A stretch of 64,000 nt of DNA from Octopus vulgaris (lineage: Eukaryota): assembly GCA_951406725.2 (NCBI GenBank), contig OX597831.1, positions 19,778,001 through 19,842,000 on the forward strand, written 5' to 3'. The notes beneath the pieces are model-generated. The model did no database searches and was not told the origin of the DNA. It worked only from the letters and a program-made list of their open reading frames with translations. Every line of letters begins with the position of its first letter. The first letter of the stretch is position 1. Shown here one piece after another: positions 1,391-53,339 of this stretch. The translations under genes were made by a program, and so were the position numbers.

Positions 1391-1490
1391 GGAGTAAACA
1401 CATAAATGTGAAACAAAGTGGAAAAAAAGAGTACTCAAATACCAGTGGTAGAGTAATATGCTCTATTTAAAGCAGCAGAAAATTCAACAA

Positions 1491-1534
1491 AATCTGTTAC
1501 TCTGAGTTTCTCGTTGCCGTTCATCAGACAGATT
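1491..1534 (-). ncRNA. Type-I hammerhead ribozyme motif
   Basis: aatctgt-CTGATGA-acggcaacga-GAAActcagagTA-acagatt; stem I 7 bp. Confidence 0.8.
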
Positions 1535-1538
1535 CTAG

Positions 1539-1588
1539 CAAAATCTGTCTGATGAACGGCAACGAGAAACTCAGAGTAACAGATTTTG
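1539..1588 (+). ncRNA. Type-I hammerhead ribozyme motif
   Basis: caaaatctgt-CTGATGA-acggcaacga-GAAActcagagTA-acagattttg; 10-bp stem I; GUA site, predicted cut after 1578. Confidence 0.85.
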
Positions 1589-1614
1589 TTGAATTTTCTG
1601 CTGCTTTAAATAAA

Positions 1615-9962: not shown

Positions 9963-10118
9963 ACACCAACTATAAACAAACATGCCCCCACTGAAATGTA
10001 CAGATGATCCTACTCTCTCTCTCTCTCTCTCTTTCTTTCTCCTTCTCTCTCTTTCTTTCTCCTTCTCTCTCTTTTTATCTATACTAATGTGTTCATTAAT
10101 TAAATTCTATGTCTTTGT

Positions 10119-10203
10119 GCAGCTGAAGATTGCTCTACATTTTAAATTGATGTAATGATTGTATTGTTCAATTAAATGGAGTTGCATGAAACGATTGTAC
10201 TGC
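10119..10203 (+). ncRNA. Hammerhead motif with long stem II
   Basis: gcag-CTGAAGA-(58 nt)-GAAAcgattgTA-ctgc. Confidence 0.7.
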
Positions 10204-10241
10204 GTTGCCTCTGGATATCCTTGCTGCTTATTTTGATTTTT

Positions 10242-21059: not shown

Positions 21060-22208
21060 TCAACAAGCCGTCTGGCTGTGCATATAAGTTGTGGTGGAAT
21101 TCACAGTGCTTTGAAAGTTGTACATAACAGAAGATCCGGGCGTGTTAAGGACGTCATAAGGTTTTGGTGTACACCAGCAAAATAAATATCGATTATAGTA
21201 TTTTCGAAACTGGTTGCTTAAGAAATAAAGAGCGAACGGGTTAACACAAGAATTTATGAAGGCCATACAAAAACTGACAATTTTGAACATCATCCAAAAC
21301 GGATTAAATTCTTCATCGAAATAAAAATACCAGAAGAGATAAATATGTCTGGGGAGCCAGCAGATAGCAAATAACACGACAAACGAAAGAACTGCCTTGG
21401 CAACTTTCATTCGAGTTTCGATCTGTTTTTTATAACTTGCTTTGCCGTTTGAATCTCCTGGTATTTGTTTGGCGCTTAATATTAGAATGCGAGCCATTAA
21501 CACATAGAAAATTCCTATAATAATCAATGGGATCATAAAGAAGACGAAAAATTTTAACATGATCATCATTCGTGGATACCACATTGGAAGATGGCCGTTG
21601 ACGTCAACGGTTGGATAGAGTATGCAAATTCTTGCCGAATAGAGAGTAACGTTGTGTGATCCTTCAATGACTGTAGATGAACTTAAATCGGGTATTGCCA
21701 ATAGCAGGGCAACCACCCATAAGCATCCGGCGGTGGTTACTGCTCTCACAATCAATCTCGACTTGTGTTTCGCCATCGGGTCCACAATGGCTATATAGCG
21801 GTCAGCGCTAAGAGCCGTCAAGGTAAACACGGATACTCCTAATGAAACGGTTTGCAGATACTCGTTGATCTTACACATCACTTCGCCAAACGGCCATTCA
21901 GGTAGAATGAAAACCAAAGAATTGAATGGAACAGAAATAAGGATAAGAAGCAGATCCCCACACGAAAGGCTGACGATGTAAATATTTGGGACTACTCTCA
22001 TCTTACGGTTCCGAAGCACTGTGTAGATAAGAGTACCATTTCCAACAATACCAATAACAAAAACAAAACCAAATAAAATTGGCACCACAATTTGTTTGGG
22101 AGTGATTTCTCTATGAGACGGGTCAAAATCATCATAAAAATCGCCTTCTCCTGAATCATAAGTGAAATTCGAACTCAGATTCAAAGATGTCTTGTTGATC
22201 AACCCCAT
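21060..22208 (-). CDS. Class A neuropeptide GPCR, bombesin/GRP-, CCHamide-, excitatory-peptide-receptor-like (382 aa, single coding exon)
   Basis: Seven hydrophobic helices; GN in TM1, LSCGD in TM2, WPFG..C in ECL1, LSADRY, CWLP, NSCVNPFALY; N-terminal N-glycosylation sequons. Confidence 0.93.
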   Translation of the reverse strand: MGLINKTSLNLSSNFTYDSGEGDFYDDFDPSHREITPKQIVVPILFGFVFVIGIVGNGTLIYTVLRNRKMRVVPNIYIVSLSCGDLLLILISVPFNSLVFILPEWPFGEVMCKINEYLQTVSLGVSVFTLTALSADRYIAIVDPMAKHKSRLIVRAVTTAGCLWVVALLLAIPDLSSSTVIEGSHNVTLYSARICILYPTVDVNGHLPMWYPRMMIMLKFFVFFMIPLIIIGIFYVLMARILILSAKQIPGDSNGKASYKKQIETRMKVAKAVLSFVVLFAICWLPRHIYLFWYFYFDEEFNPFWMMFKIVSFCMAFINSCVNPFALYFLSNQFRKYYNRYLFCWCTPKPYDVLNTPGSSVMYNFQSTVNSTTTYMHSQTAC

Positions 22209-22477
22209 TGTTATTTTTTGCTGTTTTTGTTGTTTGTTTTAGTTGTTTTGTTGAATTTTTCTCTCTCTCTCTCTCTCTCTGTATGCGTGTGTGTGTGTGT
22301 GTGTGTGTGATTTGGTAGGAATTCAAAGATGGATATTATACAGATAACCTTCAACTTGTCAGGAATATCAATTGGCGATTTAATCAACTCTCTTCATTTG
22401 AAATGTAAAAATAAACAAACTCTTCCGCCAGTTATCGAACAATACTCCTCTCAGATTTTGTCGGTGTTTATCTTGGC

Positions 22478-29587: not shown

Positions 29588-30258
29588 TAAGCCCTGCCAA
29601 TATACACATATATTAGAAGTTTCTCTGACTTCTCAGATTTTTTGTATGCTGGACTACTGGTTTTAAATTGATATTAATATTAATTTATTTCCCTCATTAT
29701 CATTATTTATTATTTAAATATTGAAATAAATACGTTCTCTAGTAGTAAGCACCAACCGCAGTGAATTATTCACTGCAGCCCTTCGCCTCAGGAATTTATT
29801 AGCGCGCCAGAACCAAGACATTTGAAATTTTATCCCTAGTGTAATCGGTAAAGCTAAACACGTGTCTGTCCTGGCACGAAAAGCTGGAGTTAGCTTTTTC
29901 AGTTTACATTACAATGAACGAATGCACTGAAGAAGCACGGACATTTGAATTACGTAAGTAATTCTTTTGTTAAAGGCCGAAACCGAGGTATGCATTTAAT
30001 TCTGTTTTTTATATAAATTTTCATCTGTCCTGCCCGCCAAATTTGGTTCTGGTGTTCGCTGAATATTTTCCTCTAGAGAATTCCCTTTTAGTTTGATCGT
30101 TGATGGTCTATTTCTAGCATTCGGCCGACTTCCTAGCAGTAAGCCCTGCCAATATACACATATATTAGAATTTTCTCTGACTTCTCAGATTTTTTGTATG
30201 CTGGACTACTGGTTTTAAATTGATATTAAAATTAATTTATCTCCCTCATTATTTATTA
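29588..30258 (+). mobile_element. Retrozyme/pLTR-like element, 552-bp period, with hammerhead at 29921-29996
   Basis: ~115-bp direct repeat at 29588 and 30140; aatgca-CTGAAGA-stem II-GAAAccgaggTA-tgcatt. Confidence 0.8.
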
Positions 30259-34172: not shown

Positions 34173-35694
34173 TGATTGATTGATTGATTGATTCTAGTTT
34201 CAGCTTATGAGCTGTGGCCATGCTGGGGCACCGCCATTTGGTGTTGCTACTTGGTTTCACTTCATGGAGGCTTTCTAGCAACTGCTATTTGGTGCATGAG
34301 AGAGTTCGATGCAGCTGCCCTCATCTGCCCCTCCTGCCGTGAAGTTGGTTCATCTGGGACACCTGACAGGAAGAGATCCAGCTTCATTTTAAAGACATCT
34401 GTATCCACCCCATGCAGGTCTCTCAGGTTCTTCGGGAGGATATTGAAGAGCTGTGGGCCTCGGAAGCCCAGGCTATCACAGAATCTTGTCCTACATCTTG
34501 ATGGCAGGTTTGGAGTCCTAGGCACCACGCAGTGGCGCCCAGTTCTGGCATTTGCGTAACTCTCGATGCCAAAGTTCAGGACACTTCCCTCCAGGATCTT
34601 CCAGATGTATATTATGGCATATCTTTCCCGCCTACGCTCCAGGGAATATAATTTTAATCTCTTGAGTCTTTCCCAGTAGCTTACATTCTGCATAGAGGCT
34701 ATCTTCTTTGTGTAGCTTCGTTGGATCGCCTCAAGTTCTGTGATCAACTTGACACTGGATGGTGACCATAGCTGAGAGCAATAGTCAAAGTGGCTTAGGA
34801 CAAGTGTCTTCCAGAGGACCATCATGGTTTCTTGTTCTCTTGTTCTAAAGGTTCTAAGAATCCATCCAGCCAGCCGTCTACATTTCATTGTCAGTTTAGC
34901 AACATGTACATGAAAGGTCGCGTCATCACTCATGTGAATACCCAGGTCACGCACTGATTGTGCCTCTGGGATTGCAATCCCTCCGGGTCCAGTGTATTCA
35001 TTGGGTATTGCATTCAGTTTTGCATGCTGATAGTATAAAGCTTGAAACTTTCCAGCATTGAACTGCATGCTATTCTTTTCAGCCCACTTGTATATTTCGT
35101 CCAGCTCACATTGCAGGTGTTTAGTGTCCTCAGGGTTCTGTATTGCCTGTGAAACTTTTGTATCATCTGCATAACTTGTGATCGTGGCTCTCTGCGTGGC
35201 TGAGGGCATGTCTGAGAGGGCCATTATGAACAGTAGTGGTCCCAGAACAGTGCCCTGCGGAACACCGCTCACTATTTGTGTGTTAATGGAGGTGGCCCCA
35301 TTGGCTACTACCACCTGACTTCTATCCTTCAGAAAGTCATGAAGCCATTCTCCCAGTTTTCCAACTATGTTGAGATCACGCAGTTTGTGACATATCATTC
35401 CATGATCGACTTTATCAAAGGCCTTTGCAAAGTCGAGATATATCACTTCCACATTTGAGTGGTTGAGCAGCCGTTTCAGCACCCAGTCATAGTGTTGTAG
35501 GAGCTGAGTTAAACAGCTTCTCCCTGGTCGGAAACCATGTTGGGTGTCGGGCAGCAAGTCATTCTCTTCAAGGAAGGTGATCAGCTTCCTTCTGACTATT
35601 CGTTCCATGACCTTGCTGATGTGTGAGGTCAGAGAGATAGGTCTATAGTTCTTGGCTTCCGCTCTGCTACCTCCTTTATGAATGGGGCATATTT

Positions 35695-35769
<75 letters not shown>

Positions 35770-36059
35770 TATACATATATATATATATGAGAGTTTGATA
35801 GAAGAATGTTAACTCTTCCTTCCGTAGAAGAAAAATATTCAAATCGGACCATGTTAACACCAAAAATTATTTACATCAAAACGGTGCCTTTTTTCTATGA
35901 AAATCCCTATTTTATACGATGTTGTGACTGCTGTGTCGCCATTTTTCGGTGTATTTCACTTAAAGAGAATAACAAGCTACATACTGCCAAATTTTAACTT
36001 TTCAAAAATTCCAATTCTAAAAGGTCTAAACAAACCGCAACGCCGGGGGATACTGCTAG
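33646..36059 (+). mobile_element. Putative non-autonomous Helitron split by a LINE insertion
   Basis: 5' TCTATATATATATAAAA+(GTCT/GT)n at 33646; 3' GCAACGCCGGG..TACTGCTAG at 36059, like the intact element at 55952-56333. Confidence 0.5.
34170..35698 (-). mobile_element. 5'-truncated CR1-group LINE, uninterrupted RT frame
   Basis: YRPISLTS, QHGFRPGRSC, LDFAKAFD, GVPQGTVLGP, YADD, RDLG, LERRR; (CAAT)n tail; flanked by (TA)n. Confidence 0.93.
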
Positions 36060-36296: not shown

Positions 36297-36388
36297 CTTT
36301 CCTGATGAGAAGATTGCATCTTATTGCATCTTACACCGTTTATTCCTTTGGAATAAAACCATGTTGTCTTCGAAACATATGTCGAAAG
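36297..36388 (+). ncRNA. Canonical-core hammerhead motif (GUC site)
   Basis: ctttc-CTGATGA-gaagat...gtcttc-GAAAcatatgTC-gaaag; palindromic stem III ACATATGT. Confidence 0.85.
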
Positions 36389-48900: not shown

Positions 48901-48939
<39 letters not shown>

Positions 48940-48942
<3 letters not shown>

Positions 48943-50335
48943 CAACAATTGAGGGTAAAATTAATTAATTATTAATCAATTTCACCAAGTGTTCAGTATG
49001 CAAAGGGACCATTTAAGGCGAATTCAAATTATTACATTATATAAAAGGGCTTAGTAAAATAAATTACTTTGCCGCATACTGAACTCATTAGAAATAGCAG
49101 CTAAAAAACTTTTTTAAAGCTATTTCTAATACTTAAAGAAAATCTCTCTCATGTAGTGTTTGCTTAACTCAACTCACGAAAGTTTGGGGGTAAGGACATC
49201 AAAAAATCAAATGCAAAGGTTATTTGAGAACGTACGTTTCAAGATTAGTCAAAACAACACTTCTATCATCAGCTCAGAAACTCCTTGGTTTGGATTTGAA
49301 AACACTGAAAGTAAGAACATACCTTTTCGGCTTCTCATCGCTTTCGAGATCCGCTCGTAACTAACAGTGCCAACAAACCCAAATAAGCAAGCGAAGAATT
49401 TCTGTCCTCCCCTTTCCACCAGCGTGGGTTAAAATCATCAAACACTATGCTTATTTCGGTAAAATCCGAAGCATTAATTAGAGGGAGATTAATTATAATT
49501 TCAACAATTGAGGGTAAAATTAATTAATTATTAATCAATTTCACCAAGTGTTCAGTATGCAAAGGGACCATTTAAGGCGAATTCAAATTATTACATTATA
49601 TAAAAGGGCTTAGTAAAATAAATTACTTTGCCGCATACTAAACTCATTAGAAATAGCAGCTAAAAACTTTTTTAAAGCTATTTCTAATACTTAAAGAAAA
49701 TCTCTCTCATATATAGTGTTTGCTTAATTCAACTCACAAAAGTTTGGGGGTAAGGACATAAAAAAATCAAATGCTAAGGTTATTTGAGAACGTACGTTTC
49801 AAGATTAGTCAAAACAACACTTCTATCATCAGCTCAGAAACTCCTTGGTTTGGATTTGAAAACACTGAAAGTAAGAGCATACCTTTTCGGCTTCTCATCG
49901 CTTTCGAAGATCTGCTCGTAAGCTATTTCTAATGAGTTCAGTATGCGGCAAAGTAATTTATTTTACTAAGCCCTTTTATATAATGTAATAATTTGAATTC
50001 GCCTTAAATGGTCCCTTTGCATACTGAACACTTGGTGAAATTGATTAATAATTAATTAATTTTACCCTCAATTGTTGAAATTATAATTAATCTCCCTCTA
50101 ATTAATGCTTCGGATTTTACCGAAATAAGCATAGTGTTTGATGATTTTAACCTTTGCATTTGATTTTTTGATGTCCTTACCCCCAAACTTTCGTGAGTTG
50201 AGTTAAGCAAACACTACATGAGAGAGATTTTCTTTAAGTATTAGAAATAGCTTTAAAAAAGTTTTTTAGCTGCTATTTCTAATGAGTTCAGTATGCGGCA
50301 AAGTAATTTATTTTACTAAGCCCTTTTATATAATA
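48940..50335 (-). mobile_element. Retrozyme-like tandem (560-bp unit, ~1.75 copies) plus inverted segments
   Basis: Units start 48940 and 49499; identical hammerheads at 49225-49276 and 49785-49836; inverted copies 49921-50335. Confidence 0.85.
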
Positions 50336-50349
50336 TATATATATATATA

Positions 50350-51271
50350 GTGTTGCATATTTGCCATTTGAATATGGCTAACCCATAAGGGTGGATGCTA
50401 CTGTAGTTTGTAGCCCCAGGAAGATATCTCCTCCAGCTGGCTATAGACACACTATCTGTGTCCTGTCAGTATTTGTGAAGGGGAGTCATCCTCCCCGTCT
50501 TCAACACATGATACACACGTACCCGAGTTTCAAGGTGTTTACCTTTCATCAACGTGTGACAATCATGGTTGTCGATGAGAAGTCAGATCCCTTCACAAAT
50601 ACATATACTTTTTCCAGTGTCGATCTGACACTGATGTTGAAAAAGTGAAATCAAACAATGATAAATCTCAGAGCGAGTTATAAACAGTAGCGGTAACACA
50701 TCGTGACGCATATTTGCCATTTGAATATGGCTAACCCATAAGGGTGGATGCTACTGTAGTTTGTAGCCTCAGGAAGATATCTCCTCCAGCTGGCTATAGA
50801 CACACTATCTCTGTCCTGTCAGTATTTGTGAAGGGGAGTCATCCATATTCAAATGGCAAATATGCAACACGATGTGTTACCGCTACTGTTTATAACTCGC
50901 TCTGAGATTTATCATTGTTTGATTTCACTTTTCCAATATCAGTGTCAGCCGACACTGGAAAAAGTATATGTATTTGTGAAGGGAGCTGACTTCTCATCGA
51001 CAACCATGATTGTCACACGCTGATGAAAGGTAAACACCTTGAAACTCGGGTACGTGTGTATCATGTGTTGAAGACGGGGAGGATGACTCCCCTTCACAAA
51101 TACTGACAGGACACAGATAGTGTGTCTATAGCCAGCTGGAGGAGATATCTTGCTGGGGCTACAAACTACAGTAGCATCCACTCTTATGGGTTAGCCATAT
51201 TCAAATGGCAAATATGCAACACGATGTGTTACCGCTACTGTTTATATCTCGCTCTGAGATTTATCATTGTT
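50350..51271. mobile_element. Retrozyme-like 353-bp unit, tandem plus inverted
   Basis: Units at 50355/50708, inverted at ~50843/51195; hammerhead 51014-51058(+) and C3U copy 50514-50558(-). Confidence 0.85.
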
Positions 51272-51281
51272 ATATATATAT

Positions 51282-53339
51282 GTTAGTTAGTTATTTAGTT
51301 AGTTAATTTGGCTCAAAAGCAAATAGCAAGGCCATGTAGGGGGGACATGGAGTTAAGTACAGGGTGGTGTTCATGTAAAGAGTTCAGGCCACTTGAGGTC
51401 CAGGGAGGCTTTGAACAAAGCGGTCGTCGGCATCTTCACCATCTCGTCTGGCAGCTTGTTCCACGGATCCGCAACCCGGACGGAGAAAGCCCCTCTCCTT
51501 CGATTGAGATGAAATCGTCGCAGGTAGAGCTTTTCGGAATGACCCCGCAGCCGACGCTCTGGAGCAGGAGTGAAGAACAGCTCTTTCGAGAGGTTACACT
51601 TTCCGCTTATGATGTTGTGGGCGAGAATGAAATCACCACGGCGGCGGCGTTTTTCAAGAGAATAAAGGTCGAGCGTCCTCAGCCTTTCTTCGTAGGACAA
51701 ATTTTTGAGACCATGAACCATGCGGGTAGCCAGCTTCTGGACTCTTTCGAGATGCTGTATGTCTTTGAGGAGATAAGGAGAAGAGGCTTGAATCCCATAC
51801 TCCAATATTGGTCTCACCAGCGTGACATAGAGTGGTAGGAATATGGCTACTGTGAGCATTCCGAATGACCGTCGAATCAAGAACAGAATTCCGCGTGCTT
51901 TGTTGGCAGCATGGACGCACTGGGCCGAAGGCGAAAAGGAGGAATCCACCAAGATACCCAGGTCCTTTACCTGATCGGTCCTCTCCAGCAGCAGACGACC
52001 CGGCTCGAAATCAAGTTGAGTTGCAGGAGTAGAGCCGACAGGCAGATGACAGCACTTTGACACGTTCAGACACAGGTCCCAATCGTTAGACCACTTCCAA
52101 ATTTGGTGGAGGCATCGACGAAGATCCTCTATATTACCGCGAGGAGCGACCAGTTTGATATCGTCGGCAAATAGAAGGGTGTGTTGCGTGAGGTCGTCGG
52201 GCAAGTCATTTATGAAGACTAAGAACAACAAGGGCCCAAGCACTGAACCTTGAGGCACGCCACTGCTCGCACTGGAGACGTCGGACCGCGAACCATTAAC
52301 TTGGACTTGGAAGGAGCGATCTGAGAGGAAGGCACCAACCCATCGTATAATATCCGGATGGAAACTATATGCTTGAAGCTTGACAAGTAATAGGCGGTGG
52401 TTTACCGAGTCAAAAGCTTTGGCAAAGTCCAATAAAACGATGTCAACAGCATCACTATCATCGAGGATGCGCGTCACCAATTCTTCCATTACTAGTAAGT
52501 TGGTCAAGCATGATCTCTTCGGCACGAAGCCGTGTTGGGAATCAGAGATAGAGGCTGTGTTTAGGAGGTGGAGCATCATACTTTTCTTAAGGATGGTTTC
52601 GAACATCTTGCTGATTATTGATGTAAGGGAAACCGGTCGGTAGTTAAGCGGGTCTTCGCGGCTCCCTTTCTTGAAAATTGGGCAGATTATCGCTGTTCTC
52701 CAGTCTGCAGGTATATCACCCGTTGCCAATGACATATTGAATAGTCGTGTTAAGGGCTCGCAGATGACCGGAGCCAACGCTTTGATAACCCGTGGGTGTA
52801 TGCCGTCAGGGCCGTGACCCTTGTTGACATCGAGGCCTTGAATAACACGTTTGACTTCGTCCCTCGTGATGACCAATCGAAGCATTGGAGGTACCGATCT
52901 ATCAAATGGAGGGGGTTCACGACCATCATCTTGTTTGAAAATAGTTGAAAAAGCCTCGGCAAATAATTGGCTCTGTTGATAAGGGTCCTCAATCGATACG
53001 CCTGTTGAGTCTACCAACGTTGCAATCTGGTTGTTCAAGCGGGAATTCCGCTGGACATGGGCAAATAAAGGTTTTTGGATTGCTACTGGCATTTGCCGCG
53101 ATTTTGTATTCATAACTGAAGCGTTCTTTCTTTTCAATTTTCACGACTCGGTCTCGTTGAGTTTTGTACACCTCAAAAGCTGCAGTCGAATCCAGACTTT
53201 TGAATTCAGCCCAAGCAATATCTCTGAGTCGACGTTCTCGTTTAACCTTCTTCGTCACCCAGGGCTTGTGTTTCTTCTTCTTGGGAAGCCCAACGGGAAC
53301 TGCCTGGTCAGTCAAACAGATTACATATGCTTTGAGGGA
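51282..53339 (-). mobile_element. 5'-truncated CR1-group LINE (RT domain), one frameshift near 53070
   Basis: KPWVT, GPDGIHP, YRPVSLTS, LDFAKAFD, GVPQGSVLGP, FADD, LEKRRRRGD; (TAAC)n tail. Confidence 0.93.

What the first reader, a model, noticed from the sequence alone, without database searches (positions are those of the whole stretch)
48940..50335. Complete retrozyme-like monomer: two identical hammerheads exactly 560 nt apart
Minus strand tgag-CTGATGA-stem II-GAAACGTACGTT-ctca at 49836-49785 and 49276-49225. Cleavage at both GUU sites (49789/49788 and 49229/49228) would release a 560-nt non-coding RNA. The ACGTACGT palindrome lets the two ribozymes pair as a dimer, as established for minimal hammerheads. 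The inverted block 49921-50335 is two pieces joined at an AACC microhomology (~50150), which suggests RT template switching.
Basis: partly seen in the sequence, partly recalled or inferred. Interest (0 to 1): 0.85.

Follow-up and report, generated by a model that had tools for sequence, protein, structure and literature searches.

The report
Hammerhead-bearing parasite of Penelope retrotransposons
This is one copy of a widespread 560-base non-coding repeat with a hammerhead-ribozyme motif, a known kind of element that likely borrows the enzyme of Penelope-type jumping genes, and its back-to-back insertions almost always pair one long end with one short end, which suggests both DNA ends are likely primed on one RNA.

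Summary
Observation confirmed: two identical 52-nt type I hammerheads lie 560 nt apart on the minus strand, beside an inverted two-piece block (the microhomology is 5 nt, TAACC). It is not a one-off. At least 1,399 hammerhead copies exist genome-wide, plus three relatives at 65-74% identity that keep the ribozyme, a self-complementary stem III and a structured 200-nt domain. The 48935-50337 block is one insertion in (TA)n with known Penelope-like (PLE) architecture: tandem, inverted 5'-truncated arm, tail on one end. It is a new member of the non-LTR retrozymes (non-autonomous PLEs). The scan noted similar architecture in other genomes.

Added here: 61 of 65 two-arm insertions pair one long end (~295) with one short end (~198), and none pairs like with like. 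Opposite arms are as alike as units within an arm (0.52% vs 0.53%; 1.77% between loci). Their inner ends are mostly independent, which argues against fold-back self-priming.

The ribozyme looks weak (GUU site, U·U at stem II base). Cleavage, circles and the helper element are not shown.

The parts
48935..50337 (.). Whole two-arm insertion, both 3' ends pointing outward into (TA)n
48905..48940 (.). Left (TA)n target; long end of the element (unit position ~290-295) merges into it
48935..49921 (-). Long arm, 987 nt, 1.76 units: positions 429-560, 1-560, 1-295
49229..49788 (-). 560-nt monomer between predicted cleavage sites; 33% GC; longest Met-ORF on the sense strand of the arm is 29 aa; folding z = -6.0
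49785..49836 (-). Type I hammerhead, upstream copy: 4-bp stem I, CUGAUGA, weak stem II, GAAA, palindromic stem III, GUU site
49225..49276 (-). Type I hammerhead, downstream copy, identical
48935..49135 (-). Structured domain (unit ~94-296) holding both end sites; z = -7.35; conserved in four families with paired changes; likely the enzyme-recruiting element (inferred). Second copy at 49493-49695
49921..49922 (.). Central junction between the arms (unit 429 joined to unit 132), no clear microhomology
49922..50152 (+). Short arm, inner piece (unit 132-362); 1 difference in 231 nt from the monomer, 0 in 159 nt from the outer long-arm piece
50148..50152 (+). TAACC microhomology; the jump removes unit 363-560 and 1-6, i.e. 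the whole hammerhead
50148..50337 (+). Short arm, outer piece (unit 7-197), ends at the short site; same haplotype as the outer long-arm piece
50331..50350 (.). Right (TA)n target

Best explanation
This is a single insertion of a high-copy, non-coding 560-nt tandem element with a type I hammerhead motif, and it is likely mobilised in trans by a Penelope-like RT/GIY-YIG enzyme that likely primes both cut ends of a (TA)n target on RNA from one source, one at a long site and one at a short site. Steps: (1) tandem copies are transcribed (inferred). (2) Paired hammerheads would cut multimers into monomers that can close into circles in at least some rounds, which would explain arrays fixed for their own variants (inferred). 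(3) The enzyme would bind the conserved 200-nt structured domain (inferred) and nick both strands of (TA)n (target bias shown; one 17-nt duplication seen). (4) One DNA end would anneal to the UAUA-rich loop at ~198 and the other to the UAUA-rich stretch at ~295 (end positions shown; pairing inferred). (5) Both cDNAs would run for independent lengths, across the ribozyme site and with occasional jumps, and be joined end to end (junction pattern shown; enzymology inferred). This copy used a template with at least two different units.
For: Family: 205 BLAST matches from 40 of 1,134 candidates scored; 1,399 motif copies vs 0 control. Target: (TA)4 on both flanks in 56 of 68 loci and on one flank in 11; 17-nt duplication at L041. 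Ends: 54 of 56 two-arm loci are long+short, 2 have one off-site end, none is like+like; the 26 one-arm loci split 13 long, 13 short. Nine further two-arm loci: 7 long+short (one short end at 208), 2 off-site. An autonomous PLE family in the same genome does the same in 8 of 8 two-arm loci. Same source for both arms: 0.52% between arms, 0.53% within, 1.77% between loci (28 loci); 9 variants seen in only one of 68 loci are fixed across both arms. Independent inner ends: 10 of 57 within 30 nt vs 6.2 expected. Constraint: variants shared by 3 or more loci hit 2 of 181 scored domain positions vs 8 of 54 at positions 5-93, while rare variants are even, 31-39 per 100. 5 of 30 pairs change on both sides. 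Intact RT+GIY-YIG ORFs of 775 and 781 aa with a Neptune-type CX4CXXC linker exist and end in (TA)n. Literature: tandem/inverted/tail layout (PMC8557442, PMC3846280); both strands cut and extended from internal sites (PMC11167929).
Against: No autonomous element with homology to this unit was found among three intact families and 14 older RT loci or upstream of 17 single-hammerhead loci. The ribozyme has a GUU site and U·U at the base of stem II (weaker by established knowledge), and RNAfold does not form it. Arm inner ends do not pile up at the cleavage site. The anole enzyme does not need cleavage and primes without homology (PMC11167929). At this locus the units are different haplotypes. L020 has outer pieces of different haplotypes, and family F2 has 1 long+long locus among 14 two-arm loci. 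ABAB variant patterns in L037 and L038 show that arrays also change by other routes. Same-unit priming is visible only at this locus; overall outer-outer is 0.28% vs outer-inner 0.33%.
Confidence: 0.62

Rival explanations
1. Same non-autonomous Penelope element, but the template is an uncleaved linear multimer; the hammerhead acts rarely or late, and long arrays grow after insertion by unequal exchange.
For: 100 of 112 arms read across the cleavage site, with no pile-up there (loci were chosen for holding a hammerhead, so this is biased). This locus is a haplotype mosaic. ABAB patterns. In vitro, unprocessed RNA is the main substrate (PMC11167929). 8 of 9 frog dimers did not cleave.
Against: Core, stem I and stem III palindrome are kept through paired changes in four families. 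14 locus-private variants are fixed in every covering piece, up to 12 of 12 units across both arms, which needs a single-unit bottleneck followed by re-multimerisation; inverted arms are not easily homogenised by unequal exchange.
Confidence: 0.25
2. The inverted arm arises by fold-back self-priming of one nascent strand, as proposed for rotifer Penelope elements (PMC3846280).
For: 2 of 57 junctions are exact fold-backs and 10 of 57 lie within 30 nt; one search shows two more near-symmetric centres (L342, L344). The model also explains arms sharing a haplotype.
Against: 47 of 57 junctions have inner ends more than 30 nt apart. Short arms are often longer than the long arm (up to 4,981 nt), so they cannot be copies of it.
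Confidence: 0.08
3. A DNA-level satellite spread by recombination and repair at (TA)n, with a relic ribozyme.
For: Tandem arrays up to about 9 units; no transcript shown here.
Against: Fixed strand-specific 3' ends, random 5' truncation, a target duplication, a conserved RNA structure, and the same layout in autonomous PLEs.
Confidence: 0.03

Closest known systems
Metazoan non-LTR retrozymes (Cervera and de la Pena 2020, PMC7229834; Li, Clavereau, Pollet 2026, bioRxiv 10.64898/2026.07.22.740005)
   Same: Non-coding tandem units, GC under 45%, a type I hammerhead in each unit, a highly paired monomer, co-occurrence with PLEs. Palindromic minimal stem III and a U·U at the base of stem II each occur in axolotl ribozymes (HHR_Amex1 and HHR_Amex2 respectively).
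   Different: 560 nt exceeds the 170-400 nt of the 2020 paper but lies inside the 51-972 nt range of the 2026 preprint. The parts read do not describe two-arm inverted insertions or two fixed 3' ends. Circular RNA is not shown here.
EN+ Penelope-like element insertion unit, Neptune type (Arkhipova 2013 PMC3846280; Craig 2021 PMC8557442; Cervera 2014 PMC4209133)
   Same: Partial tandem plus inverted 5'-truncated copy, tail on one end, microsatellite bias, minimal dimer-type hammerhead with a 4-bp stem I.
   Different: No ORF. The tail is ~95 nt rather than 30-40. One-sided tails are described as 'often' or 'optional'; here the pairing is near-absolute. Centres are mostly not palindromes.
Anolis Poseidon PAc in vitro (Frangieh 2024, PMC11167929)
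   Same: Internal initiation at two sites that define the tail, AT-rich target, both strands cut and extended, predicted dimer.
   Different: The PAc sites are adjacent, AC-rich, non-homologous to the target, and show no strand preference. Here they are ~95 nt apart, UAUA-rich like the target, and used one per end.
L1 twin priming (recalled, not read here)
   Same: Divergent two-arm product primed from both target ends.
   Different: In L1 the first cDNA stops near the second primer. Here 51 of 56 long arms pass the short site and only 4 of 56 end near it (3.6 expected).

Membership tests
non-LTR retrozyme | Type I hammerhead in consecutive tandem units | tested here: met
non-LTR retrozyme | Non-coding, GC under 45-50%, no LTR/tRNA parts | tested here: met
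   33% GC, longest Met-ORF 29 aa sense and 50 aa antisense; no tRNA
non-LTR retrozyme | Stable, highly self-paired monomer | tested here: met
   z = -6.0, 0 of 100 shuffles
non-LTR retrozyme | Self-cleavage, at least as a dimer | not testable with these tools
   Motif conserved across four families but predicted weak
non-LTR retrozyme | Linear and circular monomer RNA in cells | tested here: inconclusive
   Only assembled contigs of runs guessed to be RNA were available
non-autonomous Penelope-like element | Partial tandem plus inverted 5'-truncated copy | tested here: met
non-autonomous Penelope-like element | Tail at one end (two 3' ends) | tested here: met
   61 of 65 two-arm loci
non-autonomous Penelope-like element | AT-rich or microsatellite target, duplication where visible | tested here: met
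   67 of 68 loci with (TA)4 on at least one flank; 17-nt duplication at L041
non-autonomous Penelope-like element | Intact autonomous PLEs in the same genome | tested here: met
   775- and 781-aa ORFs, many identical copies
non-autonomous Penelope-like element | Sequence shared with the pLTR of a named autonomous partner | tested here: inconclusive
   None in the loci sampled; only 150 of 6,136 GIY-YIG candidates were scored
autonomous Penelope-like element | RT and GIY-YIG ORF between pLTRs | tested here: not met
   No ORF in the element
plant LTR retrozyme | Type III hammerhead in LTRs with 4-bp duplication | tested here: not met
   Type I topology, tandem layout

The most novel reading that the evidence does not exclude
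Penelope-type insertion is obligate double priming on a single RNA. One enzyme complex anneals the two target ends to two fixed sites of the same (often circular) molecule, both RTs roll past each other's hybrids by strand displacement, and the cDNAs are joined end to end. This one mechanism would account for the one-sided tail, the head-to-head inversion and the homogeneous multimers, and the conserved 200-nt domain would be a portable loading signal for (TA)n-targeted insertion.
Probability: 0.3. Interest if true: 0.72.

Novelty: new member of a known kind. Interest (0 to 1): 0.4.

Why it matters
The element itself is ordinary for animal genomes rich in Penelope-like elements. Its value is as a clean natural record of an open question: how PLEs make tandem/inverted insertions with a tail on one end (PMC8557442 names this as the next task; PMC11167929 leaves the later steps unvalidated). 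Because the unit is short and recent and has diagnostic variants, the end pairing, the shared haplotype of the two arms and the independent inner ends can be counted. Together they favour double priming on one source RNA over fold-back self-priming and give a direct two-RNA in vitro test. It also supports the 2026 proposal that animal retrozymes are non-autonomous PLEs, by insertion anatomy in an invertebrate-type genome rather than by co-occurrence.

Tried and rejected
Rfam at gathering score: no match in the window. Pfam PF26215 is not in the library. Expression: no RNA holder listed on record; three runs guessed to be RNA hold contigs over the unit, but contigs cannot show strand, ends or circles, so this counts neither way. 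Helper search: blastn and profile searches of 20+20+20+20 PLE stretches found only separate small insertions of related families, none joined to an ORF; none upstream of F2-F4 copies within 1.5 kb or of 17 single-hammerhead loci. Pile-up of inner ends at the cleavage site: 15 of 114 in the first 40 nt vs 8 expected, but at least three are mapping artefacts of pieces that start at ~550, so rejected. Two of about six independent internal jumps (this locus and L042) start within 11 nt of the cleavage site; this is suggestive only. L1-style blocking at the short site: rejected. Same-unit priming as a general signal: not seen (the L047 and L071 rows there are a second insertion and an alignment edge). 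Junction overlap of 1-7 nt in 27 of 57 has no chance control and is not used as proof. Rows dropped: L036 (empty neighbour), 14 of 30 loci (same insertion listed twice), L218 (same as L196), 2 loci cut by the locus edge. Literature searches that found no description of this family or of strict end pairing. Repbase and Dfam could not be searched, and no supplements were read; either may list the family.

Full report
Observation. The block 48935-50337 maps to the unit as follows: minus strand 429-560, 1-560, 1-295; then plus strand 132-362 and 7-197. Both 3' ends point outward into (TA)n. The internal junction has a 5-nt microhomology, TAACC, and deletes the hammerhead from the short arm; the central junction has no clear overlap. 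The genome is 2.8 Gb in 227 contigs. I recall the flanking SINE and microsatellite landscape as octopus-like; that label comes from no call.

Family. The monomer gives 205 matches at up to 98% identity from only 40 of 1,134 candidates scored. A 545-nt subfamily differs by a 16-nt deletion. The core pattern matches 1,399 times against 0 for the reversed control, and in the 100 rows shown variation is concentrated in loop II. Three more families (F2-F4; 1,548-2,056 first-look candidates each) share unit positions ~94-299 at 65-74% identity; F2 has a period near 610 and F4 near 561.

Ribozyme. All four families keep the core, a paired stem I with different sequences, and a self-complementary stem III (ACGUACGU, ACGCGCGU, ACAGGCUGU), with GUU, GUC or GUA sites. 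F1 and F4 share a stem II plan: a mismatch at the base, 3 bp, a 3x3 internal loop, then a short stem. The four common stem II variants fall in loops or keep the pair as U·G. The motif is therefore under constraint and of the dimer type described for PLEs (PMC4209133, parts 1-2 of 4 read). It is predicted to be weak: RNAfold does not form it, and the monomeric fold is +1.2 kcal/mol against -6.6 for the best fold. Cleavage is not shown.

Structured domain. Positions ~94-296 fold at z = -7.35. On 10 sequences from four families, 96.5% of cells pair and 5 of 30 pairs change on both sides, against 34-44% pairing for slid controls. The structure was derived from the same sequences and the changes are few independent events, so this is supporting, not decisive. 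Shared variants avoid the domain (2 of 181 positions vs 8 of 54 upstream) while rare variants do not. The short end lies in a 28-nt AU-rich loop and the long end just past the last hairpin; both contain UAUA that could pair with a (TA)n primer (inferred). At L041 a 17-nt duplication is visible.

End rule. Of 84 loci, 56 were two-armed: 54 long+short, 2 with one off-site end, 0 like+like. The 26 one-arm loci split 13:13 and 2 were cut by the locus edge. Independent choice would give about half like+like. Nine further two-arm loci among 17 gave 7 long+short and 2 off-site. F2 gave 12 long+short, 1 off-site and 1 long+long of 14 (the query favoured long ends). An autonomous family with a 4,271-nt period gave 8 of 8. 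The neighbouring unrelated element in this window also has one longer end. A one-sided tail is known qualitatively (PMC3846280, passages; PMC8557442, passages).

Template. Across 28 loci, units differ by 0.53% within an arm, 0.52% between arms and 1.77% between loci. Across 68 loci, 158 shared and 14 private variants are fixed within their locus, 9 of the private ones across both arms; 49 shared variants are polymorphic, 11 of them from a second insertion in L047. Both arms thus come from one source, and arrays pass through single-unit bottlenecks, as a monomer circle or repeated jumping on a monomer would give. Post-insertion exchange also occurs (ABAB patterns). This window's locus is an exception: its two outer pieces share three family-level variants that the inner monomer lacks (0 of 116 vs 8 of 244 differences). 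Its template therefore held at least two different units, and both ends likely started in the same one. L020 shows the opposite pattern.

Junctions. In 57 central junctions the inner ends are spread over the unit; 10 are within 30 nt of each other (6.2 expected) and 2 are exact fold-backs. Long arms do not stop at the short site (4 of 56), and 100 of 112 arms cross the cleavage site (biased by how loci were chosen). This disfavours fold-back self-priming and L1-style blocking as the main route. It fits the in vitro result that a PLE protein cuts and extends both strands from internal sites (PMC11167929, parts 1-2 of 4 read), although that study saw no strand preference and no target homology.

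Helper. The genome holds at least three intact RT+GIY-YIG families; one has 150 of 150 scored copies identical over 207 aa. The two translated carry the CX4CXXC linker that PMC8557442 assigns to Neptune and Nematis types. None shares detectable sequence with this unit, so the partner is unknown.

Placement. It works like, and meets every testable feature of, a non-LTR retrozyme (PMC7229834, passages and parts 2-3 of 6; bioRxiv 10.64898/2026.07.22.740005, parts 1-3 of 5) and a non-autonomous PLE. PMC6962438 (passages) reports 235 hammerheads in giant squid without further analysis. Eight searches found no description of this family; repeat libraries and supplements were not seen. Earlier scan notes report similar anatomy in three other genomes and none for this sequence or place.

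Verdict. Real, new member of a known kind, interest 0.4. The part worth pursuing is the near-absolute long+short pairing with shared haplotypes, which makes the PLE insertion mechanism testable.

Noticed in passing
window 50347-51271: A second, unrelated hammerhead element (period ~353) abuts the first across a (TA)n run. It is two-armed, its right end is about 45 nt longer than its left, the hammerhead at 51014-51058 (+) is intact (GUA) and the other copy has C3U. 98 exact copies of its hammerhead genome-wide.
   Followed up: partly
window 1488-1591, 29920-29997, 36297-36388, 10117-10205: Further type I hammerhead-like motifs; the one at 1488-1591 is a small head-to-head pair.
   Followed up: no
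L144 (744-5990), L221-L240, L313-L318: Three intact autonomous Neptune-type PLE families ending in (TA)n, with a long upstream frame before the RT-EN ORF. Two show hammerhead-like motifs with variant cores (U3-A8 in the 781-aa family, U4C in a 775-aa family), read by eye.
   Followed up: partly
L037, L038: Alternating ABAB variant pattern along arrays: a dimer-sized duplication or a dimer circle.
   Followed up: no
L252 (G000:C26:37556455-37557017): F3 copies at ~198-nt spacing, a shortened tandem that keeps the structured domain, apparently without room for the ribozyme.
   Followed up: no
window 21063-22238 (-): Single-frame rhodopsin-family GPCR ORF, 392 aa.
   Followed up: no
window 34262-35863 (-), 51374-53140 (-): LINE-type RVT_1 ORF fragments.
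   Followed up: no
   Followed up: no
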